Part shown: one piece after another, positions 14,529 to 41,221 of the stretch
How positions within the stretch are numbered: the first letter of the stretch is position 1
Layout: each line of letters begins with the position of its first letter
Virus record (IMG/VR): IMGVR_UViG_3300031974_003050
Coordinates: 1,438-65,437 of that record
Length of the DNA stretch: 64,000 nucleotides
DNA from: a virus
Lineage: Duplodnaviria; Caudoviricetes
Direction: 5' to 3' (one strand)
Made by a program: the position numbers and the translations under genes
Notes under the pieces: model-generated
What the model was told of the DNA's origin: nothing
The model's input: only the letters and a program-made list of their open reading frames with translations
The model's database searches: none

Positions 14529-16312
14529 GTAACGGGGGACCTGGTTTTGGCGGGGCGGTAATACCTGGCATACAGGTATCTAATATTGGTGGGGGCGCCG
14601 CTCAACGCCAACAAGAACAGCAGCAAAAGGGAATGCTATCCAGCCTGATGGGTATGGATATGACTGGTATGTCGGAACAAGGGATTCAGTTCTCTATGGC
14701 TAAACGAGACTACCTGATTGATAAGATCCTTAATGATGACGACGAAGACTTTGGGTACGAACAGCTTATAAGAGGTATAACCTCTTTGAATGACTTCCTC
14801 CTGAGGGATAAAACAACGTATGCAGAAAATCTGGCTGTAGCATCCCCTATTCTTAATGCATCTTTAAGTGATGCGGGATACAATGATCTTAGATCTGCTC
14901 TTGAAGAGAAAGCACTGTTTATTAACAAAGAAGACGTAGACAGGTATGCTGTAGATTACAATATGATGCTTGAAAACCCATATGGTATGGGTAACTATTT
15001 CAACCCTTCTGATGACATGGTGTACGTACAAGATCCTACTATGGCTGGCAGAAACATGCAGCAGGTTAGCGGTCAACACGTACTAGGCATGCAACTACCA
15101 GATCGAAACTCTTTTCAGTACCAGACTGAGGACATCCCAACAGGGGATGTTTTCGCTTACATGAAGAGTGGTGCAGAAGCGAATCTGATGTCTCTGCTTG
15201 GGGCAGTAGACAACTCAGTTGATGCAAAGCAAAAAATCAGAAGACAATTTCAAACCTTCGTTCTTGGGAGAGGACTAGGCCGTAAGGCTCTGCAAGAGAG
15301 TTTGTCTGCCTTAGGATATGATATTGAAGATCTTGCTGGAAAACTAGCAGGGACTGTTGCCGACAACGAAGAAGGACTACAAGGAGCCCTTTTAGAGAAA
15401 AACGTTACATACGCTAGTTCGTTTAAAGACAACGTTGAGACCATATACAAGGAGTTCGAGGAGTACTATATGGATATGTGGAATGCTGATCGTCGTGACA
15501 AACAGGCTAGATTGAATGCATCAAAATCAGGAAGAACACCTAAAATAGAATATAACTTCCAAGAAGATGTAACTATAGGTATTGACAGTTCGCCAGACTT
15601 TTTAGAAGTTGATAGTATGCTTGGTGAAGACTCTGCTATTATTTCCGAACTAATGGCTAGCTTTGAACCAACAATAACTGGAATTCCTAGCCCTGAGATG
15701 GAAGAAGCTAGAGATAATATACTTAAAACAATTTCTGATAACAAATTTCTTGGTATAAGAAACATGGATCCTGTGGAGTTTGAATTCCCTGGAACTAATG
15801 AACCAACTTTTAAGTCGTCTTCCTTCTCTCTTATTGACTCTCCAAAAAGCGATGGTGAAATGGGTAGCTGGGTGATACTTAACGGATCTCAATCCAATCC
15901 AATTATGTCAACATCCTGGTTTGAGCCTGAACCAGGGAAATATATAGGTGAGTATACAACGCGAGAGGAACCAAACCCTGATCTCGGTGGTGAAATTAGG
16001 ACTAAGTACTATTTCGTGTCAGATTACGAAGACACAGCTGTAACAAAAGAGTTTCGTATAAGCGACCCACAACTTCACAAATGGTTTTCAGCAATAGGGT
16101 CTACTTATATGAAAAAGACAGATCTTAATAAAGCAATAATTGGTGACGACATGGAGGCTTATTATCAGCGTCTGGGTTTTGCTATTGTTGTGAAAAAAGC
16201 CGCAGATCAGGGGATGAGAAATTACAATGGGGATCTGATGTACCCAGAGGGAAGTAGGGAACTTTCAGTAGCACGGGAGATAATTTCAGATGCACAAATA
16301 AGGATTGACTAA
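14525..16312 (+). CDS. Putative internal virion (cargo) protein
   Basis: 595 aa, located between an ejection protein and the giant protein. Confidence 0.55.
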   Translation: MSNGGPGFGGAVIPGIQVSNIGGGAAQRQQEQQQKGMLSSLMGMDMTGMSEQGIQFSMAKRDYLIDKILNDDDEDFGYEQLIRGITSLNDFLLRDKTTYAENLAVASPILNASLSDAGYNDLRSALEEKALFINKEDVDRYAVDYNMMLENPYGMGNYFNPSDDMVYVQDPTMAGRNMQQVSGQHVLGMQLPDRNSFQYQTEDIPTGDVFAYMKSGAEANLMSLLGAVDNSVDAKQKIRRQFQTFVLGRGLGRKALQESLSALGYDIEDLAGKLAGTVADNEEGLQGALLEKNVTYASSFKDNVETIYKEFEEYYMDMWNADRRDKQARLNASKSGRTPKIEYNFQEDVTIGIDSSPDFLEVDSMLGEDSAIISELMASFEPTITGIPSPEMEEARDNILKTISDNKFLGIRNMDPVEFEFPGTNEPTFKSSSFSLIDSPKSDGEMGSWVILNGSQSNPIMSTSWFEPEPGKYIGEYTTREEPNPDLGGEIRTKYYFVSDYEDTAVTKEFRISDPQLHKWFSAIGSTYMKKTDLNKAIIGDDMEAYYQRLGFAIVVKKAADQGMRNYNGDLMYPEGSRELSVAREIISDAQIRID

Positions 16313-19300
16313 TGAACGACATTGAGAAACTATACAACTCTTACTTAAAAAGTGGGCGAAGTGACGATCAGATATATAGCTCACTAGTTTTGTCTGGCTA
16401 TAATCCATCGGATGTGACCTCTTATATGGATTATGCTAAAAAAAAAAGACAAAATCCAACAAAGGAATACGGTCAAGAGTTTTCTCAAAACGTTTACACT
16501 CAGGTTCAGGGCGATTCGGTTTCTCAATCCACTTCGGGGTTTGGGAAGCCTTTGTCGGAATCAGACTACAGCGCGGTAACAAAGGTTAACTTTGAGCCTG
16601 TAGGAGGTCCCGTAGATGGTTATCAGCAATACAAGCCTGTTAGTGAAATACAAATAGGAGAACCTGTTTTTGGGGCTGAAGCCGCAGCTTTAGGTGAGAT
16701 AGAGAAGAAGCAAGATTTTGTAGGATTTTCGGACCCTATGTCCCTGAAGGATTTTATGGGCTTGGATATGGAGGTCAAAGAAAACTTTATGGGGGCATTA
16801 AATGATATTGTTCCCAACCAGAAAGAGAGAATAGATCTTGCCAACGCTTACGCATATGCGTATGAAGGGGTTGGTGCAGACCCAGAGGGCCCTATTCCAG
16901 AAGGGGGGAGAGCCGACTTGAGAAAAGGCATAAAAGATGATTTAAAGTTGAAAATGAACTCTTACAGAAAAAAGTTCTTCAACGATAAAATTAAAGAAGC
17001 TATATCTGGAACGTTTCAAGAAGGTCAAGATGCTGTTAGTTTAGAAAAGTATATTCTTGATAACTACGGCCTCACTACTCAGATTGATGATAATGCTTTT
17101 GTAGGAACAGAAGAAGGAGCATACGAACAGATTAAGAACCTGTTCGTGCCTAACATTGGTCATGCTACAGATGGGTTTCTTGCTGGAGGATTGAGGCTTA
17201 TTGCTCAAGACAGGCTTTTACCGAAGGGAACCTTGTATGACTCGCTGTACAACTACTTTGGGTTTGAGGAAAGAAGAGCGCAGAGAGAGAGGGATATGTT
17301 AGAAGGTAAAGCCGTAAGGTTTATGGCAGACGAAGAGATGGAGGCGATTGGTATGCACGTAGACAGAATGCTTACTACACCGCTTCAAGCCATTGGTTAT
17401 AGAGAGGGTTTTTCTGAGACAGATATGATAGAAATGCTTGGTAACTCACCAGGAACATTGTCCTCTCAGGTTGCTGGTGGCCTTGCTGCAGCTGCAGCCC
17501 TATATTTTACTAAAAACCCTTCGGCTGCTCGTGCGGCTGCTGGTTCAGCTTACGCCTTGACTCAAGCTACATTTATGGGCCTTCAGGTTATGGGTCAGGA
17601 ATATGGGTCTACATACTCAGATCCAAATTTTTACAACTACTCAATAAACGGAGATCCAGTAAGCATGGATGAGGCTACAGAAGTAAATGAGTATGGTGAA
17701 TTGGTTTTAAAGGAAGGGTACGAAAGGGTTCATGACCACTTCAGGGCTGCTGGGCATTCAGAGGTTTCAGCTTTCAGTGAATTTGGTGCCGAGTATCTTG
17801 GAAACCTTATTATGGTTAAAGGAGGTGGCGCGGTGATGAGAGGTGTAGGGGTTTCTCGCCCTGGTATGAGTATCGGTGTGGGTGTAGCCGATGTTACTGG
17901 CAGCAAGGCATTAGGTAGATCCGCTCAGTATTTGATTGGTGGGGTCGTTCCAGCGGTAACAATCGGATCTTATATAGAGGGGCAAGAAGAGGTAGTTACA
18001 GAGATACTTCAAACCGCCTCAAGAAGACAGTTCTCTCAACAGTCGGGCGCATCTGCATACGGGTTGTTTAGTGAAGTGTATCAGGGGTTTATTGATCCCG
18101 ACGAGGAGCTTCAGGAGAATATAAAGAAGGCAAGAGGTGCGGGTGAGTTCTTCGGAATGTTATTTGGCGGTGGCATAGCTACAGCCAATATTGTGCAGAA
18201 CGAAGTAGGTATAAAGAAAGCAAATAAGGCAGCGGCGCAAAACCAGCGCCGACGAGATACAATAAACAAAAAAAACGGAACTAACTACAGCGCAACTCAA
18301 TACATTGACCCAGATTATTTTAACTCCTATGAGGAGTGGTCTCAATACGAGAATAATAGAAATCTTTATAACAATCAAATTCTAAAGGCAATTCATGCCC
18401 ATAAAGGTGCTATAACCATGGGTATGTCTAGATCTGAAAGAAAGGTCCACAATAAGCTTATGAAAGAGCTTGATTCTCTTTTTAAGACCAGGAACGAAAA
18501 CGGAGAGGTGGATCTGGAGGCGATTGTAGCCATGCTGCCTAGTCTTGCGTCTAAACTAGATGCTGTTCGAGGTAATATAAATATGAGCGAGTCTATTGTA
18601 GAAAACTTGATTAAGTCCGCTCAGCATGGAAACCTGGAAGCAGCCGAGTTTCTTCTTGAGGTGGCCAGAACCCAACTTGACTTCTCGGCTGCCATGAAAG
18701 CTATTTACAACCCAAACCTTGATGGCAACATAGAAAAAACCTTGAGGTCGGAACTCTCTAGCCTTGAAAAAAGAAATCAAGAGCTAGTAAAGATGGCTTA
18801 TGATCATGCTGAAGGGAAAGGGTTTAGATACACCATAGTTACAGACCCTCGAACGGCAAGCGAAGCGGGTCAGGTTCAGGTGTACGAGAAACAAGGAGAC
18901 ACGTATAGAGTTAGATATACAAATGCAGCTGACGTGCCAGCGGGAACAATAAAAGATAGTTCAGAAGGGAGGTTTTCTTACACCGAGCTTAGCGAGGGGG
19001 CAACGGAGGTTACTGAATCAGATGTTGACAACACCAGCCTATCAGATCAACAGAAGTCAGACCTAAAGAGATTGATATCTCGAAGTCCAAACGCAAGAGT
19101 AATTATTCATGACTCTCAAGACTCTCTGGACAAGGTAGGGTCTAGGGCAGGCCTTCTCGGAAAACAGGCATTTACTCTTCAGGATTTTGACGGTAGGGTT
19201 TTTGAAATTCACCTTTTAAAGAACTTCACAAATGAAGTAGCGGAAGAGGAGTTTGGGCACTACGAGTTTAATGAAGAGCTATACAAAGATGAGGTCCGAA

Positions 19301-22300
19301 GGCCCATGATAGAAGCTATAAACAAAGCTATAGAGAGCGATCCTAACAGCGCTCTTGCTGAGTTTGTAAGGGTTCACAACGCCAGATTGACTGGACACAA
19401 TCAGAAATACATCGAAGTAGAGCTTCTTACCAATCTTGGAAGAGCTATAGCTAAAGGAGAAACGACAATAAGCGACAGGGTTGTAAAAGCATCCGATGTA
19501 GAGAGTGTGTTTGATCCTGGCAGAAGTGGCTTTAGAGATTACGTAAGTCGTTTTGACAAATACCTGAAAGGAAAAGGTAAGGTAAAGGAGTTGGCTTATG
19601 ACCCGTCTCAGGTAGACAACGAGGGGTCAGTAGAAGGTACAGCGGCGTCATATAAGCCCACTTTCCTTGATGGTAAGATCGTTTATGGGCATATACCTTT
19701 GAGTCAATTTAACGCATCTAAGAACCTAGAGGTATCTGCCAAAATAAAAGACTACAATCACTTCAGAAACTGGTATGCTAAAATGACTGGCAACCATAAA
19801 AGAAGATTGTATAGTCTTAGTTTTGAAGATGATAACGGAAACAGAGTACCTATATCATCTATGCCTGGTCATGATGTTACAGACGGAAGGCCTCTGGATT
19901 GGAGGGGTAAAGAACTATTTTACAAAAGAGACTACAACACTAAGGAAATAATATCTATGGAGCCTGTAGCCTTGACTTTTCAGGAGAAAATGGCTCGTGA
20001 TCATGCTAGAAATAAAGAACAGGACGAAGCTAGACGTCAAAGTAAATTAAACAGGTTTAATAACCTTAATAACATTGCTATGGAGGCGCTAGGTGTTAAC
20101 ATATACACCTTTGCTCAGCGTATTCCAGGTATCGAACAGGCTACCGATGAGTTAGGATACAAGAGCGGATTCACAGAAGAATCTCTTGAGAAGATAGAGG
20201 TTGCTCTGGCTGCAGAGCTTGGAGTAATTACCCTTGAGCCTCAAACAGTTGCCCTGCCAGTACCAAGGGTTCCGAAAAACATATCGGGCGACATAGTGGA
20301 AGGTACAGCGGCTTCCGTTAAACTTCCCACTCTTCAGTACTCTACGGCTGAAGAGCAGGCACTACTTAAAGAGCTTGAGGTAGAGAGCCTGTCTGATATA
20401 ACACCTGAAATGCTTAGGGGTTTGTATGGGACTACACAGAATCCAGCTCTAATTGCTACAGTTGCGGGCGGGCAAGAAATAGAGGTTTTGGTTGACTTTT
20501 GGTCTGGTCCAAAATCAAATGTTACAATAGGATATATAAATAAAAATGGAAATTACGCTACAGTTTCAAGAGAAATAACAAGTGGGTCAGAGGCTCTAAT
20601 GAATAGAGAACCTGACCGATATGATCCAGATCCAGACGTCCTGGTTCGAAGCTTCGGGGCCAACACAAGCAGAAGCGTGACTGGGAAGTATGCAGCGGCG
20701 ATTGATAAAGCAAAGGAAAACGGGCGGCTGCTTTTGGTAGTGCCAGCAAGTCTTGCTGAGGAAAACATATACTCAGATCAACAAGGTTACGAGGTTATGT
20801 TAGAAGATGTTGTTTTGAGAGCCCTTACAACATGGGGGGATACAAATCTAAAACGCAAAGGCGTATCAACTATGTCTGTAAGTAGACCTGAAGGTCCAGA
20901 TGGATATATAGGTAGAGACGAATCAGGAGGAGAGAACGTATCGGTAGTTGATGTTACTGTCGCTAACTTAATAGGTCAGGCCATAGATAAAGCCATAGCT
21001 GGAACACCTAGTGGGGGGAATTTTGTTCAGCATTTTAAACGAGAGTCAGTATCTCTAGCTTTAGATAAAGAGAACCTTCAATATCCATTTAACCAAATAA
21101 CAGGAGGCCCTGCACCTAAGACAGGTCTGTTAGGAGGACAAATTAGAGGCGATATTGAGGTTTCTAAGGTTGTGCTAAAAAGAGAAGCTGACGGTAATTA
21201 TGATCCTAAAATCGTAACCGAAGCGTTGAGGCTTATAATATCTCTTGGTAATCATTATGCTGACGAAACCATGGCTAACCTTGGATTTGCCGCAAGAAAA
21301 GAGATAGCAACTCAAATTGTAAAAAGCTTAGACAAGGTAGATAATCCTTTTTTTGATAAAAAATCTAAGTCTTCTAAAGCAAGAAAATACCTGTTCCAAG
21401 AAAGTAATATTAATTCACTAGAATACTGGAATAGCGTGTTTCTGTCAGATAATTACACTAGAGGTGGCGCTCATGTTGTATTTATGGTACAACCAGAAGG
21501 ATACGCAGGAGTTTCCCCTAAGTACAAGAACAAAAAGGGGGTAAAGGAGACGTATAGGTATCACGCTCAGGCAGAGGAGAACTCTGTATTGGCTATCAAG
21601 ACCGATCCTAATAAAACAAAGAAGCTGGTAGAAGAGATAATAGATATTCAAAACAAAGGGAAAAAAGGATACAAGCAGGTAAAGAGCTCTCAAAAAGTAG
21701 ACCTGGAGGGTACAGCCAACTCAAGGAGACTGGGTCGCATAAGCTATACAAATGGACCGTCTTGGCAAGCGTCAAACCCAACTGGATTTGGTAAGGCTCT
21801 TGATGCGGTTGCTTTGAAGTTACAGGATAAGTATCACGAGGTGATGCTATTGCAAAAGGACATTGAGGAGTTCAGGGGTCGTAGGATGGCTGAGGGTAAC
21901 GACTTCAACCTTGCTGTTGACCTTATGTATGGAAAGACAAGAAACGACCTCGATGCTCTTGACGCTAAGCTTGACGACATCAAGACCAGCATGAAAGCGG
22001 AAGACATTAAGTCTGACGATCTATCTAACTTCTTGTATGCTATGCACGCAAGAGAACGCAACGCTAAGATTGCATTCGATAGGCCAGACATGGAGAGCGG
22101 ATCTGGTATGACCAACGAAGAGGCAGAAGAGATCATTGATAAGCTCGGCACTAACGCTATGCGTAGATTGGCTTCTGAGGTTAGGTCTATAGTTCAAGAC
22201 ACCAGGGATACCATGAGAAAGTATGGACTGGAAACCAACGAGACTATAGATGTATACGAACAGATGTATGACCACTACGTCCCTCTTTCTGGATTGGCTA

Positions 22301-24510
22301 CTGACGAGCAAGACGATACCACAAACTCATACCCGACTGGAGGTATAGGTATGGCGGTGTATGGACCGACTACAAGGAAGGCTAAAGGAAGAAAGTCTAA
22401 AACGGATGTAAACATTATAGCTCAGGTGGTGATGCAAAACGCTAGGGTAAAGCAGCTGGCGAGAAAGAACGAGGCTCTACTCAGCCTGCACTCTATGTTC
22501 TCTGGAAACCCTAATGAAAAAGTGTTCAGTCTATGGGGTCCGAAGAACAGGATGCAAACCGTAGAGAAAAACGGAAAGGCTCGTAACATGAGCGACAGTG
22601 AGATGCGTGCGCGTAGGGATATGGTTCCTGTACGCATCAATGGTGAGCAGCACTTTATACAGTTTAAGAATGAGCACTACGCAAACACTATAAATGGCCT
22701 AAGTGTAGATCCAACCAACATCATCACCAACGCTATGCGAAAGCCTGCTCAGTGGCTTCGTAACGTGTTTACTGTATACGATCCTAACTTCTTTGTAACA
22801 AACTTCTCTAGAGACATACAGTCAGCCATTTATAACGCCTTGGCTGAGGCGGAACGTGCTGATGGGACTGTATCTGGCGTTAGAGTTGATGAGCTCACCA
22901 AGAAGCTCCTGTCCAACACGGCTACATCCCTCAGGGGGTTGCTTAACGAGAACGCTTTTGGAAAAGAGATGTCTCCAGAACTGAAGCAGTACTTCGAGGA
23001 ATGGAAAGAGTCTGGTGGTCAGACTGGATGGGGTTATAACAAAGACATAGACGCCATCATAAAAGAGCTTTCAGATGATGCCAAGAAAGGCTTGCCTAGT
23101 AAAGTATGGAAGACGGCTAAAGACGTAGCATCGTATGTTGAAGGGGTAAACGAAGCTTTTGAGAATAGTGTTAGACTTTCGGCTTATATGTCTGCTAGGC
23201 AGCTTGGTGTTACAAGAGATCGAGCAGCTCAGCTGTCCAAGAATATCACAGTAAACTTCAATAGAAGTGGTGAGTGGGGAAGTACGCTCAACTCCATCTA
23301 CCTGTTCTTCAATGCAGCGATGCAGGGTAACGCTAGGATACTCAGGTCTATGGTATATCTGAAGGATACTAAGAAGCCTAACGGTGAGCTGGAGTCTTGG
23401 CACAAGAGAACCACTCTACCACAGAAAGTAGCTTTTGGTATGGCTACGTTCAGTGGAATGGTAACAATGATGAATCTAGCCTTTAGCGATGAGGACGAAG
23501 ATGGTGAGTTGTTCTACAATAAGATCTCAGACTACGAGAAAGAAAGAAACCTGATTATCATGACTGGAGGGAAGGGATATCTCAAGATTCCTCTCCCATA
23601 CGGGTACAACCTCTTCAACAACCTTGGAGTAATGCTGGCTGAGACGGTATCGGGACACAGGGATGCTGACGATGCAATGATGTTCCTCGCCACCTCTGCT
23701 ATTAGTTCCTTCTCCCCTATCAGTTTCGGTCAATCAGACAACGCTGTAGACTATGCTACTAAAGCGGTTATGCCTACTGTTCTAAAGCCTATGGTAGAGA
23801 TTGGGATGAACGAGACGTACTTCGGAGACAAGGTGTACATGGAGCAACTTCCATTCGGGACCCCAAGGCCTGAGTCTCAGATGTCATTTAGGTCTCCTGA
23901 GGATATACAAGAATTCTTTATTTGGCTGAACGAAGCTACAGGGGGGTCTAAGTACAAGTCTGGTAAAGTGGATGTGAACTTCGATCCATACTGGTATGTG
24001 TTTGAGTACTTGTCTGGGGGTTCTGGAAGGTTTATTAATCAAGCTGGCAAAACAGTGTACGATGTTGGTCAGGCAGCATATGCAGCGGGGGAGGCAGCGT
24101 ATGAATCAGAAAACATCCCTAGCTTCATGAGGAACCTTGAGGAGAAGCCTATGCCGCAGTTCAATCTGTCCAGGATGCCTCTAGCTAGAAAGATATACGG
24201 GGAAGCATCTAGATACTACGACTATGACTTGTTCGAAGAGAACGCAGAGGAAATCAGGCAACTAAAAAGGGAGTTAAAAGAGCAACCTAACGTAGACCCA
24301 AGAAGGTACACGGGTGTAAACGTATTGTACAGCAGGCTAAAAGATGTTGAGAAGAAGCTTATGAAGCTCAGAGATAGAAGATCTCAAGCTCGTGAAATAG
24401 ATGATTACATAAAAAGGTCCGAGATTATAACACAAATCATGGAAGACGAGAGGCTTTACATGGTGAATTTTAATATGGAATATGAGAAAAGAAGAGGGAA
24501 AGAAGATTAA
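16312..24510 (+). CDS. Giant polyvalent virion/ejection protein with an LPD38-like C-terminus
   Basis: 2732 aa; NFSRDIQSA, FENSVRLSAY, NITVNFNRSG..YLFFNAAMQG, YLKIPLPYG; EEEFGH zincin-like motif at 19243-19260. Confidence 0.7.
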   Translation: MNDIEKLYNSYLKSGRSDDQIYSSLVLSGYNPSDVTSYMDYAKKKRQNPTKEYGQEFSQNVYTQVQGDSVSQSTSGFGKPLSESDYSAVTKVNFEPVGGPVDGYQQYKPVSEIQIGEPVFGAEAAALGEIEKKQDFVGFSDPMSLKDFMGLDMEVKENFMGALNDIVPNQKERIDLANAYAYAYEGVGADPEGPIPEGGRADLRKGIKDDLKLKMNSYRKKFFNDKIKEAISGTFQEGQDAVSLEKYILDNYGLTTQIDDNAFVGTEEGAYEQIKNLFVPNIGHATDGFLAGGLRLIAQDRLLPKGTLYDSLYNYFGFEERRAQRERDMLEGKAVRFMADEEMEAIGMHVDRMLTTPLQAIGYREGFSETDMIEMLGNSPGTLSSQVAGGLAAAAALYFTKNPSAARAAAGSAYALTQATFMGLQVMGQEYGSTYSDPNFYNYSINGDPVSMDEATEVNEYGELVLKEGYERVHDHFRAAGHSEVSAFSEFGAEYLGNLIMVKGGGAVMRGVGVSRPGMSIGVGVADVTGSKALGRSAQYLIGGVVPAVTIGSYIEGQEEVVTEILQTASRRQFSQQSGASAYGLFSEVYQGFIDPDEELQENIKKARGAGEFFGMLFGGGIATANIVQNEVGIKKANKAAAQNQRRRDTINKKNGTNYSATQYIDPDYFNSYEEWSQYENNRNLYNNQILKAIHAHKGAITMGMSRSERKVHNKLMKELDSLFKTRNENGEVDLEAIVAMLPSLASKLDAVRGNINMSESIVENLIKSAQHGNLEAAEFLLEVARTQLDFSAAMKAIYNPNLDGNIEKTLRSELSSLEKRNQELVKMAYDHAEGKGFRYTIVTDPRTASEAGQVQVYEKQGDTYRVRYTNAADVPAGTIKDSSEGRFSYTELSEGATEVTESDVDNTSLSDQQKSDLKRLISRSPNARVIIHDSQDSLDKVGSRAGLLGKQAFTLQDFDGRVFEIHLLKNFTNEVAEEEFGHYEFNEELYKDEVRRPMIEAINKAIESDPNSALAEFVRVHNARLTGHNQKYIEVELLTNLGRAIAKGETTISDRVVKASDVESVFDPGRSGFRDYVSRFDKYLKGKGKVKELAYDPSQVDNEGSVEGTAASYKPTFLDGKIVYGHIPLSQFNASKNLEVSAKIKDYNHFRNWYAKMTGNHKRRLYSLSFEDDNGNRVPISSMPGHDVTDGRPLDWRGKELFYKRDYNTKEIISMEPVALTFQEKMARDHARNKEQDEARRQSKLNRFNNLNNIAMEALGVNIYTFAQRIPGIEQATDELGYKSGFTEESLEKIEVALAAELGVITLEPQTVALPVPRVPKNISGDIVEGTAASVKLPTLQYSTAEEQALLKELEVESLSDITPEMLRGLYGTTQNPALIATVAGGQEIEVLVDFWSGPKSNVTIGYINKNGNYATVSREITSGSEALMNREPDRYDPDPDVLVRSFGANTSRSVTGKYAAAIDKAKENGRLLLVVPASLAEENIYSDQQGYEVMLEDVVLRALTTWGDTNLKRKGVSTMSVSRPEGPDGYIGRDESGGENVSVVDVTVANLIGQAIDKAIAGTPSGGNFVQHFKRESVSLALDKENLQYPFNQITGGPAPKTGLLGGQIRGDIEVSKVVLKREADGNYDPKIVTEALRLIISLGNHYADETMANLGFAARKEIATQIVKSLDKVDNPFFDKKSKSSKARKYLFQESNINSLEYWNSVFLSDNYTRGGAHVVFMVQPEGYAGVSPKYKNKKGVKETYRYHAQAEENSVLAIKTDPNKTKKLVEEIIDIQNKGKKGYKQVKSSQKVDLEGTANSRRLGRISYTNGPSWQASNPTGFGKALDAVALKLQDKYHEVMLLQKDIEEFRGRRMAEGNDFNLAVDLMYGKTRNDLDALDAKLDDIKTSMKAEDIKSDDLSNFLYAMHARERNAKIAFDRPDMESGSGMTNEEAEEIIDKLGTNAMRRLASEVRSIVQDTRDTMRKYGLETNETIDVYEQMYDHYVPLSGLATDEQDDTTNSYPTGGIGMAVYGPTTRKAKGRKSKTDVNIIAQVVMQNARVKQLARKNEALLSLHSMFSGNPNEKVFSLWGPKNRMQTVEKNGKARNMSDSEMRARRDMVPVRINGEQHFIQFKNEHYANTINGLSVDPTNIITNAMRKPAQWLRNVFTVYDPNFFVTNFSRDIQSAIYNALAEAERADGTVSGVRVDELTKKLLSNTATSLRGLLNENAFGKEMSPELKQYFEEWKESGGQTGWGYNKDIDAIIKELSDDAKKGLPSKVWKTAKDVASYVEGVNEAFENSVRLSAYMSARQLGVTRDRAAQLSKNITVNFNRSGEWGSTLNSIYLFFNAAMQGNARILRSMVYLKDTKKPNGELESWHKRTTLPQKVAFGMATFSGMVTMMNLAFSDEDEDGELFYNKISDYEKERNLIIMTGGKGYLKIPLPYGYNLFNNLGVMLAETVSGHRDADDAMMFLATSAISSFSPISFGQSDNAVDYATKAVMPTVLKPMVEIGMNETYFGDKVYMEQLPFGTPRPESQMSFRSPEDIQEFFIWLNEATGGSKYKSGKVDVNFDPYWYVFEYLSGGSGRFINQAGKTVYDVGQAAYAAGEAAYESENIPSFMRNLEEKPMPQFNLSRMPLARKIYGEASRYYDYDLFEENAEEIRQLKRELKEQPNVDPRRYTGVNVLYSRLKDVEKKLMKLRDRRSQAREIDDYIKRSEIITQIMEDERLYMVNFNMEYEKRRGKED

Positions 24511-39187: not shown

Positions 39188-39432
39188 TGGTTCAGGTATC
39201 GTTGCTTGAGTTCTTTCATCGGGTTGAGATAGATTTCTTGCATCAACTGCGTATCGTTGAACATGTCTCCATCGCGCAGTTTGTCTGCGAGGGCATCCAG
39301 CCACTCGGCTTCGTATTGCGAAGCCTTCTTCTCGAAGCGTTCGTCTAGGATAATCATTGCAATCTCTTGCATGCTCTTGCGCTCGATCTCGCGGACTACG
39401 CCGTCAATGCGCTCTTGTTTAAATGTGCTCAT
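39184..39432 (-). CDS. Small early protein
   Basis: MSTFKQER. Confidence 0.5.
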   Translation of the reverse strand: MSTFKQERIDGVVREIERKSMQEIAMIILDERFEKKASQYEAEWLDALADKLRDGDMFNDTQLMQEIYLNPMKELKQRYLNQ

Positions 39433-39442
39433 GTTTGTGTGT

Positions 39443-39616
39443 TTACTTGTTATAATCATTCCAGTTGTGCCTGCTGTACAGGTAGTCTATGTACTCGTCG
39501 TCCTCGTCTCTCAACTCTGCGAAGAGTTGTTCTTCTGCAATTCTCAGCAGGTCTTCATGTTTCATGCGCTCAAGTTCCATGTGAATCAAGCGGTCGATTT
39601 TTTCTTCTCGTGTCAT
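39443..39616 (-). CDS. Small acidic early protein
   Basis: MTREEKIDRLIH, 57 aa, AC-rich leader; not in the ORF track. Confidence 0.5.
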   Translation of the reverse strand: MTREEKIDRLIHMELERMKHEDLLRIAEEQLFAELRDEDDEYIDYLYSRHNWNDYNK

Positions 39617-39629
39617 GTGTGTGTTTGTG

Positions 39630-39760
39630 TAGCGATAAGGGGAGTCGAACCCCTACCAATCCTCACATCGGTTGCCATAAGCCCGTGGTCACGGGTGGAA
39701 GCTTTGTCTATTGGATTGGCGCACACCATCCTCGCATCCTCATGCAAGAGTGCTATCGCT
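39630..39760 (-). ncRNA. Expanded tRNA-like RNA (~130 nt)
   Basis: Acceptor AGCGATA/TATCGCT-A, T-arm AGGGG-TTCGACT-CCCCT, extra stems. Confidence 0.6.
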
Positions 39761-39770
39761 ATGTATTCTG

Positions 39771-39843
39771 TACCCACGGCAGGATTCGAACCTGCGACCG
39801 ACTGCTTAGAAGGCAGTTGCTCTATCCCCTGAGCTACGTGGGC
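39771..39843 (-). tRNA. tRNA-Arg(TCT)
   Basis: GCCCACGTAGCTCAGGGGATAGAGCAACTGC-CTTCTAA-GCAGTCGGTCGCAGGTTCGAATCCTGCCGTGGGTA. Confidence 0.93.
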
Positions 39844-39847
39844 TATG

Positions 39848-39920
39848 TGCGCCTGGTAGGACTTGAACCTACGACCTGCCGATTATGAGTCGGATGCTCT
39901 AACCACTGAGCTACAGGCGC
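39848..39920 (-). tRNA. tRNA with CAT anticodon, probably Ile2 (lysidine); Met not excluded
   Basis: GCGCCTGTAGCTCAGTGGTTAGAGCATCCGA-CTCATAA-TCGGCAGGTCGTAGGTTCAAGTCCTACCAGGCGCA. Confidence 0.9.
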
Positions 39921-39921
39921 A

Positions 39922-40060
39922 TGGCGGGGGCACCCCTCCCCCTTGCATAATTGTGAACAATCCAAATTCACTCGGTTATGCCATCCGACGCAGGGGCCAA
40001 TCACCTCCCCCGCTTGCATACTTTCACAGGACCCCTCCTGATACGGGTATGCCAGCCGCC
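39922..40060 (-). ncRNA. Tandem two-unit structured RNA upstream of the tRNAs
   Basis: Two copies of GGCATAN-CCG-hairpin-AA-NTATGC-AAG followed by a G-rich hairpin. Confidence 0.55.
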
Positions 40061-40067
40061 CACAATG

Positions 40068-40670
40068 TTATACCTCTATGTTCGTTGACACCCACTCATC
40101 GAGGGCGTCCTTATCGTTACGTTCTGTGAACTTCAGCATCTGCAAGGCGTTCTCTGTGTCCTCACGCTTGCGTCCAGCCTCAACTTCAGCACGCCCCGCA
40201 GGGTCGTCGGGAAGTGGGTATGGCTCACGACCCTCATCGGTCAATCTGATGCGCTCATCCAATGAGTTAGGTGTGAAAGCGTTGATGTGTGATGGACACT
40301 GAACGCTGTCGTTTTCTGCGATGTCAAGCATCTTGCTCTTCATCCATTCACATCTGACAAGGTTCATGTAGATACACCCTCTACCATGATTAAACGTCAT
40401 CATAATCCCGTAAGTGTCGGGGTCTTCGTTGTTCCTTGTAGCAAGGGCTTGTGCCTCTCGAAGGAAGTCAGACCAGTAGTGATAAGCACCCACGGGATCC
40501 GTAGGTGATACGATGATGGGGTCTTCATCGTTGGCGTAGTAGTAGTAACCACTGCTCATAGTGTTGAGGAGGCAGTCGCAGGTGACGATAGACCCACCGA
40601 ATGTGATGGCTTTTCCGAAGGACTCAGCGAAGGAGCGAGTCGTAGCGTTGTTGTTGAGTTTGTTGTTCAT
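40068..40670 (-). CDS. Early hypothetical protein
   Basis: 200 aa ORF. Confidence 0.6.
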   Translation of the reverse strand: MNNKLNNNATTRSFAESFGKAITFGGSIVTCDCLLNTMSSGYYYYANDEDPIIVSPTDPVGAYHYWSDFLREAQALATRNNEDPDTYGIMMTFNHGRGCIYMNLVRCEWMKSKMLDIAENDSVQCPSHINAFTPNSLDERIRLTDEGREPYPLPDDPAGRAEVEAGRKREDTENALQMLKFTERNDKDALDEWVSTNIEV

Positions 40671-40675
40671 GTGTA

Positions 40676-40948
40676 TCAGAGATTTTGCGTGATGGTGTCA
40701 TAGTTGAGGTGCGGGTTCCATATCTTCATGTCCTCCACAATTTCTTGTGCTTTCATGCGGGCATAGGCCTGCTTTTGTGTCTCCGTCCCTGCCGTCTGCG
40801 GGGAAGGGAGCGGGATGAACCGATTGAATGGTCCTTCGTCGTCCTCCATGGCGATTACGTAGTTCACCTCGTTGTTAAGGATGGCACGGGTGATGGAGTT
40901 GGTGTAGCCCTCGACCGCATCGAGGTATGTAATGAGCTTTCTATTCAT
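40676..40948 (-). CDS. Early hypothetical protein
   Basis: 90 aa. Confidence 0.55.
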   Translation of the reverse strand: MNRKLITYLDAVEGYTNSITRAILNNEVNYVIAMEDDEGPFNRFIPLPSPQTAGTETQKQAYARMKAQEIVEDMKIWNPHLNYDTITQNL

Positions 40949-41189: not shown

Positions 41190-41221
41190 CAAATTTACAA
41201 TCGGTAATTGGATTCTGCAAA
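41190..41221 (-). promoter_or_regulatory. Bacteroidota-type promoter
   Basis: TTTG-N20-TAAATTTG. Confidence 0.75.

What the first reader, a model, noticed from the sequence alone, without database searches (positions are those of the whole stretch)
39922..40060. Tandem structured ncRNA with a compensatory base change
Seen on the minus strand. Unit 1 is GGCATAC-CCGTAT-CAGGA gggg TCCTG-TGAAA-GTATGC-AA-GCGGGGG..CCCCTGC. Unit 2 is GGCATAA-CCGA-GTGAA..TTCAC-AA-TTATGC-AA-GGGGG agggGtg CCCCC. The stem covaries (C-G versus A-U), the internal-loop CCG/AA is kept, the apical hairpins differ, and both second hairpins carry GGAGG. It abuts the tRNA-CAT gene. Inference: an undescribed protein-binding or decoy RNA.
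Basis: seen in the sequence. Interest (0 to 1): 0.7.

Follow-up and report, generated by a model that had tools for sequence, protein, structure and literature searches.

The report
Conserved folded RNA before phage tRNA
The flagged stretch is a real, previously uncatalogued folded RNA module that a group of uncultured marine phages keep, in one or two copies, wedged between a conserved gene and a phage tRNA gene; what it does is still unknown.

Summary
On the minus strand, 39921-40064 carries two 71-nt-spaced copies of one motif. Each copy has an invariant CGG, a 6-bp stem (P2), an invariant CCG/AA inner loop, a replaceable apical hairpin, an AAG linker and a GC-rich hairpin (P3) that ends 5 nt before tRNA(CAT).

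The window is a 97%-complete uncultured marine phage, probably of Bacteroidota. A covariance model finds the motif in 24 of 62 searched sources (59-94 bits; decoys reach 24.5 bits at most). It always lies directly after the stop codon of a conserved 200-aa ORF and directly before a tRNA.

P3 shows compensatory changes at 5 of 7 pairs. P2 shows two independent ones. The core is 94-100% identical in 11 of 15 loci whose neighbouring ORF DNA is 53-71% identical. There is no match in Rfam or in the T4 tRNA region.

The motif is one module of a mosaic island of at least five unrelated structured RNAs interleaved with tRNAs. Most likely it is a co-transcribed RNA whose 3' end is made by RNase P and whose invariant core binds a specific partner. 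That function is inferred, not shown.

The parts
40068..40670 (-). Conserved 200-aa ORF of unknown function (stop TAA at 40070-40068). The element always directly follows this ORF family.
   Evidence: ORF listed. 39 homologous clusters. No PHROG or Pfam hit. AF2 model pLDDT 75 with no PDB fold match. No tblastn match in 50,697 GenBank phage records.
40059..40067 (-). 9-nt spacer between the stop codon and the invariant CGG. It is semi-conserved and ends in a G run.
   Evidence: The spacer is 9 nt in 12 of 17 loci, 8 nt in 2, and 12, 13 or 19 nt in one each.
39990..40058 (-). Unit 1: CGG (40058-40056), P2 (40052-40047 with 40021-40016), CCG (40046-40044), apical hairpin (40040-40027), AA (40023-40022), AAG linker, P3 hairpin (40013-39990).
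   Evidence: Sequence. Fold. R1 hit 39987-40064, 82 bits. Pair counts.
39926..39987 (-). Unit 2: CGG (39987-39985), P2 (39981-39976 with 39950-39945, top pair A-U), CCG (39975-39973), apical hairpin (39971-39953), AA (39952-39951), AAG linker, P3 hairpin (39942-39926).
   Evidence: Sequence. Fold. R1 hit 39921-39993, 66.7 bits (this unit is in the model's seed).
39921..39925 (-). 5-nt single-stranded tail (GCCAU) between P3 and the tRNA 5' end. Inferred to be the 3' end of the element after RNase P cleavage.
   Evidence: Tail length is 5 nt in all single and second units except G001, which has 6. RNase P cleavage is inferred from established tRNA biology and not shown here.
39847..39920 (-). 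tRNA with anticodon CAT, called Met. Probably tRNA-Ile2, which decodes AUA after lysidine modification.
   Evidence: ARAGORN and Rfam. The best E. coli matches are genes annotated tRNA-Ile, 85.5% over 69 nt.
39770..39843 (-). tRNA-Arg(TCT).
39630..39760 (-). Third non-coding element ('T3'). It is tRNA-like, with a 7-bp acceptor-type stem and a canonical T arm, plus large insertions in the D and anticodon regions.
   Evidence: MFE z -3.21, with 0 of 200 shuffles as stable. Weak tRNA-Sec hit at E 9.7. No relatives found.
41190..41221 (-). Nearest upstream Bacteroidetes-type promoter-like site (TTTG-N-TAnnTTTG). Probable start of the transcription unit that holds the element.
   Evidence: Pattern found 8 times in the window against 1.72 expected; 0 of 100 shuffles reach 8. 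No sigma-70-like promoter and no minus-strand terminator between 39300 and 40900. The consensus itself is recalled, not taken from a call.

Best explanation
The stretch holds two copies of a new, selected RNA module, here called type A.

**Shown**
- It is a conserved fold: a P2 stem with a CCG/AA inner loop, a replaceable apical hairpin and a GC-rich P3 hairpin.
- It sits in a fixed place: 8-9 nt after the stop codon of a conserved ORF in 14 of 17 loci (12-19 nt in the other three) and 5-6 nt before a phage tRNA gene, on the same strand.
- There is no promoter or terminator in between.

**Inferred**
- It is transcribed as part of a polycistronic early RNA.
- RNase P cleavage at the tRNA 5' end creates its 3' end. 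That leaves the stable P3 hairpin with a tail too short for 3' exonucleases.
- The near-invariant core then acts as a specific recognition surface for a protein or other partner. The core comprises the CGG, the P2 sequence, CCG/AA and AAG, possibly closed by a CGG:CCG pseudoknot.
- The element would therefore work as a small stable RNA, or as the functional 3' end of the upstream mRNA, rather than as a mere spacer.
- Other modules (types B to E, and T3) fill equivalent slots between the tRNAs of related phages, which points to a tRNA-punctuated RNA island.
For: **Family membership**
- CM R1 finds the module in 24 of 62 sources at 59-94 bits.
- Pattern-selected decoys reach 24.5 bits at most, and ten more distant relatives' genomes give nothing.

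**Structure**
- On 16 distinct rows, 98.8% of cells are paired, 7 pairs change on both sides, and 0 of 500 shuffles reach this. Slid controls reach at most 51.7% paired.
- P3 has 5 of 7 pairs compensated.
- P2 has G-C to A-U in the L198 group and C-G to A-U in all second units.

**Selection on sequence**
- The core is 94-100% identical to the window's in 11 of 15 loci, and 71-85% in the other four.
- The adjacent 300 nt of ORF are only 53-71% identical.
- P3 loops and flanks differ freely.

**Context**
- All 17 distinct intergenic versions start right after the ORF stop.
- 16 of the 17 run into a called tRNA; the remaining contig ends inside the tRNA start.
- There is no sigma-70 promoter or minus-strand terminator in 39300-40900. 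The nearest Bacteroidetes-type promoter site is at 41221.

**Modularity**
- The architectures seen are A-Met-D-Arg, A-Met-E-Arg, A-Met-B-Arg, B-Arg, C-E-Arg, Met-B-Arg and Arg alone.

**Expression**
- One 193-nt contig from an RNA library (depth 2.5) spans 40037-40229, which is the ORF end plus the first ~28 nt of unit 1. This is compatible with co-transcription but is weak evidence.
Against: - No transcript ends, abundance or partner were observed. The RNA runs were assembled contigs, dominated by tRNA look-alikes from other organisms.
- MFE z-scores are only about -1.
- The proposed CGG:CCG pseudoknot never varies, so covariation says nothing about it.
- An alternative pairing of the same CGG with the CCG at the 3' foot of P3 is possible in all 15 distinct single and second units.
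- The element is dispensable. The same ORF is followed directly by a tRNA or by other modules in 29 of 53 loci with at least 100 nt of downstream sequence.
- A plain exonuclease barrier would not need a conserved sequence, and a trans-acting RNA would not need a fixed position. Neither half of the model is therefore forced by the data.
Confidence: 0.45

Rival explanations
1. Purely cis-acting 3'-end cap. After RNase P cuts at the tRNA, the P3 hairpin with its 5-nt tail, backed by P2, protects the upstream early mRNA (the 200-aa ORF and its neighbours) from 3'-to-5' decay and insulates mRNA folding from tRNA folding. There is no trans partner.
For: - It is always the first module after the ORF stop, and the tail length is constant at 5-6 nt.
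- P3 is kept as a strong GC hairpin while its sequence changes.
- Duplication (7 loci with two copies) would simply strengthen a barrier.
Against: - The 94-100% sequence identity of the P2/CCG/AA/AAG core against 53-71% in the ORF is not needed for a barrier.
- Other phages end the same ORF with no such element.
Confidence: 0.2
2. tRNA-shaped pseudo-tRNA (a three-way junction without a D arm) that serves as an extra RNase P/RNase Z punctuation mark. The CGG and upstream Gs pair with the CCG(CC) at the foot of P3 (acceptor-like stem) and stack on P3 (T-arm-like). P2 plus the apical hairpin mimic the anticodon/D arm. The unit length (71-80 nt) equals that of a tRNA.
For: - A CGG/CCG closing stem of 3-7 bp can be drawn in all 15 distinct single and second units.
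- The unit period is 71 nt.
- Neighbouring modules (type C, T3) carry true T arms and acceptor stems.
- The annotated T4 rnaC ends in a tRNA-like arm.
Against: - The closing stem is not kept in first units of tandems in that register, and there it overlaps the next unit's CGG.
- The pair next to the CGG is mismatched in 4 of 15 (with G001, L221 and L198 read in the P3 register).
- P3 loops are 7-13 nt with no T-loop sequence.
- Neither ARAGORN nor the Rfam tRNA model sees the units.
Confidence: 0.12
3. Leader that slows 5' maturation of the tRNA(CAU). A stable hairpin 5 nt from the RNase P site would keep the precursor uncut until TilS has converted C34 to lysidine, which prevents mischarging of this tRNA-Ile2-like molecule with methionine.
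For: - The tRNA behind it is CAT in 14 of the 16 distinct versions that run into a called tRNA.
- That tRNA best matches E. coli genes annotated tRNA-Ile.
- The spacing to the cleavage site is fixed.
- That TilS acts on precursors is recalled from the literature and was not checked here.
Against: - G001 and L221 carry the element in front of tRNA-Arg(CCT).
- Six loci have the same tRNA(CAT) directly after the ORF without the element.
- Unit 1 of tandems does not touch a tRNA.
- The conserved core is unexplained.
Confidence: 0.07
4. New class of small self-cleaving ribozyme that separates the mRNA from the tRNA array.
For: - It has an invariant junction and inner-loop nucleotides with freely varying peripheral helices.
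- Phage tRNA neighbourhoods are known homes of ribozymes: theta ribozymes, PMC10879173 (passages read).
Against: - There is no Rfam ribozyme hit even at E<=10.
- The helix order does not fit the HDV-like nested double pseudoknot (my threading of the sequence).
- The invariant bases lie largely inside helix P2.
- Theta ribozymes sit 3' of tRNAs, whereas this element sits 5'.
Confidence: 0.05
5. GGAGG/GGA-loop sponge. The hairpin loops would titrate a CsrA-like protein or the anti-Shine-Dalgarno sequence.
For: Both window units have GGAGG in P3, and unit 1 also has it in the apical hairpin.
Against: - GGAGG occurs in only 6 of 20 distinct units, and loops are otherwise G/U-rich and unrelated.
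- The probable hosts are Bacteroidota, which make little use of Shine-Dalgarno pairing (recalled).
Confidence: 0.03
6. Not an RNA at all. It would be a DNA-level site (protein operator, recombination or packaging site) or a neutral duplication.
For: A 22-nt block is identical between the window and G001.
Against: - Compensatory changes keep two helices.
- The strand and position relative to the ORF and tRNA are fixed.
- The block is not repeated elsewhere in the genome.
Confidence: 0.03

Closest known systems
Phage T4 small stable RNAs C and D (species 1 and 2; rnaC/rnaD).
   Same: - They are non-coding RNAs of roughly 70-140 nt encoded inside or next to a phage tRNA gene block on the tRNA strand.
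- They are separated from tRNAs by a few nt (T4 annotation).
- Their function is unknown.
   Different: - There is no sequence or structure relation. R1's best hit in the 7-kb T4 region is 6 bits, E 0.64.
- T4 rnaC ends in a tRNA-like T arm, which type A lacks. The window's T3 element is the closer analogue of that feature.
- Type A sits upstream of the first tRNA, abutting an ORF stop.
HDV-like theta ribozymes of gut phages (PMC10879173; passages read)
   Same: They are small structured RNAs of phages of Bacteroidota and Bacillota. They are physically tied to tRNA genes, often tRNA-Met, and are thought to help tRNA end-processing.
   Different: - Theta ribozymes lie at the tRNA 3' trailer and have the nested double-pseudoknot HDV fold.
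- Type A lies 5' of the tRNA and has a different helix order.
- Type A gets no Rfam ribozyme hit.
Candidate structured RNAs predicted en masse from IMG/VR (PMC10690425; passages read)
   Same: They are covariation-supported motifs of about 65 nt from uncultured viruses, many tRNA-like or next to genes. The source collection is the same.
   Different: No function or context like the one described here appears in the passages I read.
H-type pseudoknots downstream of stop codons or slippery sites (recoding signals)
   Same: The element has a stop codon, an 8-9-nt spacer, and then a possible compact pseudoknot (CGG, 2 nt, 6-7-bp stem, CCG, a long loop ending in AA).
   Different: - The read-through frame is not conserved. 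By my reading, L193 and L217 have an in-frame stop within two codons.
- The frame relative to the tRNA shifts with P3 length.
- The pseudoknot itself is unproven.

Membership tests
Any Rfam 15 family | Covariance-model score at or near the family's gathering threshold | tested here: not met
   At the gathering threshold, only the 2 tRNAs in 64 kb. At E<=10 on 39550-40150, 7 matches, none on 39921-40064. Relatives' loci give only tRNAs and weak noise.
tRNA | Cloverleaf with D, anticodon and T arms recognised by ARAGORN or Rfam RF00005 | tested here: not met
   No call on the units.
T4 rnaC/rnaD-type stable RNAs | Located in a phage tRNA gene block, on the same strand | tested here: met
T4 rnaC/rnaD-type stable RNAs | Sequence or structure homology to rnaC/rnaD | tested here: not met
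   R1 against the T4 region 68000-75000 with filters off: best 6 bits, E 0.64.
T4 rnaC/rnaD-type stable RNAs | Accumulates as a discrete stable RNA processed with the tRNAs | not testable with these tools
   Only assembled contigs of RNA libraries were available.
HDV-like / theta ribozymes | Helix order P1-P2-P3-P1'-P4-P2' (nested double pseudoknot), with the cleavage site at its own 5' end abutting a tRNA 3' end | tested here: not met
   Manual threading of the sequence gives 5-6 nt between the apical stem and the P2 3' strand, and no 3' partner for the bases after P2 5'. The element lies 5' of the tRNA. No Rfam hit.
H-type pseudoknot | Loop bases of one helix pair with a flanking strand, supported by covariation | tested here: inconclusive
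   CGG(7-9):CCG(19-21) is possible in all 16 distinct rows but never varies. A rival pairing exists.
Intrinsic terminator | GC hairpin followed by a U run | tested here: not met
   No minus-strand terminator-like site in 39300-40900. P3 is followed by GCCAU and then the tRNA.
CsrB/RsmZ-type or anti-SD sponge | Repeated, conserved GGA/GGAGG in hairpin loops | tested here: not met
   GGAGG in 6 of 20 distinct units; loops unrelated.
Type III antitoxin (ToxI-like) or phage pseudo-antitoxin repeats | Near-identical tandem repeats of about 34-45 nt, matching a host antitoxin array | tested here: not met
   The units are spaced 71 nt apart; the two repeat blocks are 82% and 87% identical, and the apical hairpins and P3 loops are unrelated. 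In 185,579 species' genomes the core pattern gives 0 hits and the looser pattern gives 3 hits. By my reading none of the 3 is followed by a P3-like hairpin, and the two that R1 reported score at most 24.5 bits. The family features are recalled.

The most novel reading that the evidence does not exclude
Type A is the lead module of a tRNA-punctuated island of phage RNAs with real biochemical activities. Its invariant pseudoknotted core would be either a new catalytic or processing RNA (a self-cleaver, or a tRNA-shaped signal that recruits RNase P), or a decoy that neutralises a host RNA- or tRNA-targeting defence. The copy-number change between one and two units among close relatives would tune the dose.
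Probability: 0.12. Interest if true: 0.8.

Novelty: new member of a known kind. Interest (0 to 1): 0.5.

Why it matters
Phage tRNA gene blocks have been known since T4 and T5 to carry small stable RNAs whose purpose is still unknown.

This finding adds a clean, covariation-supported and sharply delimited example from abundant uncultured marine phages. Near-identical DNA occurs in 18 runs of 9 studies, two of which may be the source.

It also shows that the slot between one conserved ORF and the phage's rare-codon tRNAs is a swap-shop for at least five unrelated structured RNAs.

The very high sequence constraint on a 35-nt core, the fixed distances to a stop codon and to an RNase P site, and the one-or-two-copy polymorphism give simple handles for experiments. 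If a partner or activity is found, it would speak to the wider question of why phages embed non-tRNA RNAs in tRNA arrays.

Tried and rejected
- **Thermodynamics.** MFE z-scores of the units and of the G001 copy are -0.2 to -1.5, which is no support on its own.
- **Loose DNA pattern in IMG/VR.** It returned 51 loci, and only the G001 locus is a true relative. I read the flanks of all of them, read one in full and found it coding (L013), scanned 8 for tRNAs and found none, and scored 49 with R1 (at most 20.7 bits).
- **More distant relatives.** Ten whole or partial genomes of TerL relatives (G002-G011) lack the 200-aa ORF and the element.
- **Genome-collection scans.** The strict pattern gave 0 hits. 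The looser one gave 3; by my reading none has a P3-like hairpin after the match.
- **Sigma-54 promoter, Bacteroidetes promoter inside the element, k-turn, loop E, tetraloop receptor.** Checked by eye on the sequence; none fits.
- **Small ORFs and stop-codon read-through.** The frame stays open across the element and the tRNA in the window (ORF 39843-40019) and in G001. It is closed within two codons in L193 and L217, and it shifts with P3 length (read). Rejected.
- **Pairing of the unit-2 5' flank with the tRNA D/anticodon-stem region.** An 8 perfect bp match exists (I1). It is present only with the A variant of unit 2, not in single units, and is about what chance allows (my estimate, roughly 0.06).
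- **P3 loops as G/U-rich seeds against the A/C-rich leaders of downstream ORFs.** Suggestive in L192 and L201 but absent in the window. Not pursued.
- **RNA evidence.** The two RNA runs are contigs. Apart from the depth-2.5 contig at 40037-40229, unit 1 beyond its first ~28 nt and all of unit 2 have no cover. This says nothing either way.
- **The 200-aa ORF.** No family and no fold match.
- **T3.** No relatives. ARAGORN gives only forced low-threshold calls.
- **Earlier notes of this scan.** Nothing by place or by sequence.

Full report
**What is there.** Read on the minus strand, the conserved 200-aa ORF ends with TAA at 40070-40068. After a 9-nt spacer come two related units and then, 5 nt later, tRNA(CAT) at 39920-39847, tRNA-Arg(TCT) at 39843-39770, and a further 131-nt tRNA-like element.

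Each unit has the following parts, in order:
- an invariant CGG, then two bases;
- the 5' strand of a 6-bp stem (P2);
- an invariant CCG;
- a variable apical hairpin;
- an invariant AA, then the 3' strand of P2;
- an AAG linker and a GC-rich hairpin (P3).

The two-block pattern occurs exactly twice in 64 kb against 0.00 expected. The copies are 71 nt apart. Single-sequence folding reproduces the two hairpins but is not unusually stable (z about -1), so the case rests on comparison.

**Where the window comes from.** It is a 65,437-b virus record rated 97% complete.
- It encodes a large terminase, virion proteins, a primase-helicase and a ribonucleotide reductase.
- Its terminase is 42-48% identical to those of Maribacter, Flavobacterium and Cellulophaga phages.
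- The Bacteroidetes-type promoter pattern is enriched: 8 matches against 1.72 expected, with 0 of 100 shuffles reaching 8 (the consensus is recalled).
- Near-identical DNA is present in 18 runs of 9 marine, sediment or biofilm studies, two of which may be the source.
- The host is therefore probably a marine member of the Bacteroidota. This is inferred, not shown.

**Relatives.**
- A loose DNA pattern found one true relative in IMG/VR, G001. It has a single copy with an unrelated apical segment and a different but still paired P3, in front of tRNA-Arg(CCT).
- The neighbouring ORF has 39 homologous clusters.
- An alignment of them retrieved 10 IMG/VR and 48 metagenome loci.
- A covariance model built from 20 distinct units hits 24 of 62 sources at 59-94 bits.
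- Loci that merely contain the pattern score at most 24.5 bits, and ten genomes of more distant terminase relatives have no hit.
- Of 53 ORF-bearing loci with at least 100 nt of downstream sequence, 24 carry the element, 7 of them as a tandem pair. Some loci are the same contig held in two collections. There are 17 distinct intergenic versions.

**Is it a selected structure?** Yes.
- On the model-fitted alignment of first and single units (16 distinct rows), 98.8% of cells are paired and 7 pairs change on both sides. No shuffle out of 500 reaches this, and sliding the partners drops pairing to 33-52%.
- P3 has compensatory changes at 5 of 7 pairs.
- P2 has one compensatory change (G-C to A-U in the L198 group). 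The second units add an independent one at the top pair (C-G to A-U).
- RNAalifold returns the same P2 and P3. That alignment leans towards the model.
- The apical hairpin is kept in most rows but is replaced outright in G001, L221 and L188.
- The core from CGG to AAG is 94-100% identical to the window's in 11 of 15 loci (71-85% in the other four). The adjacent 300 nt of ORF are only 53-71% identical, while P3 loops and tails vary freely.
- This profile argues for constraint on sequence as well as on pairing.

**What remains unresolved in the fold.**
- The invariant CGG can pair with the invariant inner CCG. That gives a compact H-type pseudoknot with a 2-nt first loop and an A-ended third loop.
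- Alternatively it can pair with the CCG formed by the last two Cs of P3 plus the next G. That gives a three-way junction of tRNA-like outline.
- Neither pairing varies.
- The second pairing is unavailable in that register in first units of tandems, yet they keep their CGG. I read this as a slight lean towards the pseudoknot.

**Context and likely working.**
- The stop-to-CGG spacer is 9 nt in 12 of 17 loci and 8 nt in 2. The tail to the tRNA is 5 nt, or 6 in G001.
- No sigma-70-type promoter or minus-strand terminator lies between 39300 and 40900. The nearest promoter-like site is at 41221-41190. The element is therefore most simply part of a polycistronic RNA.
- RNase P must cut at the tRNA 5' end (established biology). 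That cut leaves P3 plus a 5-nt tail as a 3' terminus, a configuration that resists 3' exonucleases (recalled).
- The strongly conserved core suggests a specific partner. This part is inference.
- The one RNA-library contig that touches the element (193 nt, depth 2.5, 40037-40229) is compatible with co-transcription but proves little.

**The wider island.** Downstream of the same ORF, related phages carry other structured segments in mosaic order:
- type B (~137 nt), always before tRNA-Arg;
- type C, tRNA-like minis with a true T arm;
- type D (~78 nt), between the two tRNAs;
- type E (~164 nt).

None of them matches Rfam. The window itself has T3, a tRNA-like RNA with large insertions (z -3.21). 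Type A, when present, is always first. This modularity resembles the stable RNAs annotated in the T4 tRNA block, but R1 finds nothing there.

**Comparison with known systems.**
- The element matches no Rfam family.
- It is not a tRNA and not an intrinsic terminator.
- It is not an HDV-like theta ribozyme, because both its helix order and its side of the tRNA differ (for the family's properties).
- It is not a GGAGG sponge (6 of 20 units).
- It is not a mimic of any sequence in 185,579 prokaryotic species at pattern level.
- It may be among the 8,495 unnamed candidates of PMC10690425. I could not check this because the supplements are closed.

**Verdict.** This is a genuine, new, narrowly distributed RNA family in a known kind of place, a phage tRNA block. 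Its function is unknown and it offers good experimental handles.
- My best reading, at about 0.45, is an RNase-P-terminated stable RNA or mRNA end whose invariant core binds a partner.
- The rivals are a plain cis cap (0.2), tRNA-shaped punctuation (0.12), delayed maturation of tRNA-Ile2 (0.07) and a ribozyme (0.05).
- Smaller rivals are a GGAGG sponge and a DNA-level site (0.03 each).

Noticed in passing
window 39630-39760 (-): A 131-nt tRNA-like RNA ('T3') lies directly after tRNA-Arg. It has a 7-bp acceptor-type stem and a canonical T arm. Its D stem carries an inserted hairpin, and an 8-bp 'anticodon' stem carries a ~50-nt insert. MFE z is -3.21. It is not called as a tRNA or tmRNA at normal thresholds, and no relatives were found. 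Its outline recalls T4 rnaC.
   Followed up: partly
window 39847-39920 (-): The tRNA called Met(CAT) best matches E. coli genes annotated tRNA-Ile (85.5% over 69 nt). It is probably a lysidine-dependent AUA decoder. Together with Arg(TCT) and, in relatives, Arg(CCT) or Ile(TAT), the phages supply rare-codon tRNAs.
   Followed up: partly
L173-L230, downstream of the ORF match (e.g. L217:1039-1175, L190:1347-1424, L204:1778-1941, L175:2113-2190): Four further families of structured non-coding segments (types B, D, E, C) are interleaved with the tRNAs in mosaic combinations. None matches Rfam.
   Followed up: partly
window 44206-44174, 43025-42993, 41221-41190, 38970-38939 (-); 50715, 54174, 62161 (+); 56326-56292 (-): The Bacteroidetes-type promoter pattern TTTG-N17-23-TAnnTTTG is enriched: 8 matches against 1.72 expected. 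The sites outline the transcription units and point to a Bacteroidota host.
   Followed up: no
window 39931-40009: One DNA run holds a contig that joins 39931 to 40009. It replaces 77 nt with 10 other letters, which looks like a single-unit version of the locus in the same habitat.
   Followed up: no
window 39982-39989 versus 39888-39895: The 5' flank of unit 2 is perfectly complementary over 8 nt to the D/anticodon-stem region of the following tRNA (part of I1). This holds only in second units, and chance is not excluded.
   Followed up: partly
L217 type B, positions 110-123, versus T4 rnaD (L231:3135-3148): A 14-nt stretch of type B matches T4 rnaD at 13 of 14 positions (E 0.68). This is not significant on its own but may be worth a proper model-based comparison.
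   Followed up: no
window 16312-24510 (+): A 2,732-aa ORF lies in the structural region, next to a 1,413-aa virion protein. It was not examined.
   Followed up: no
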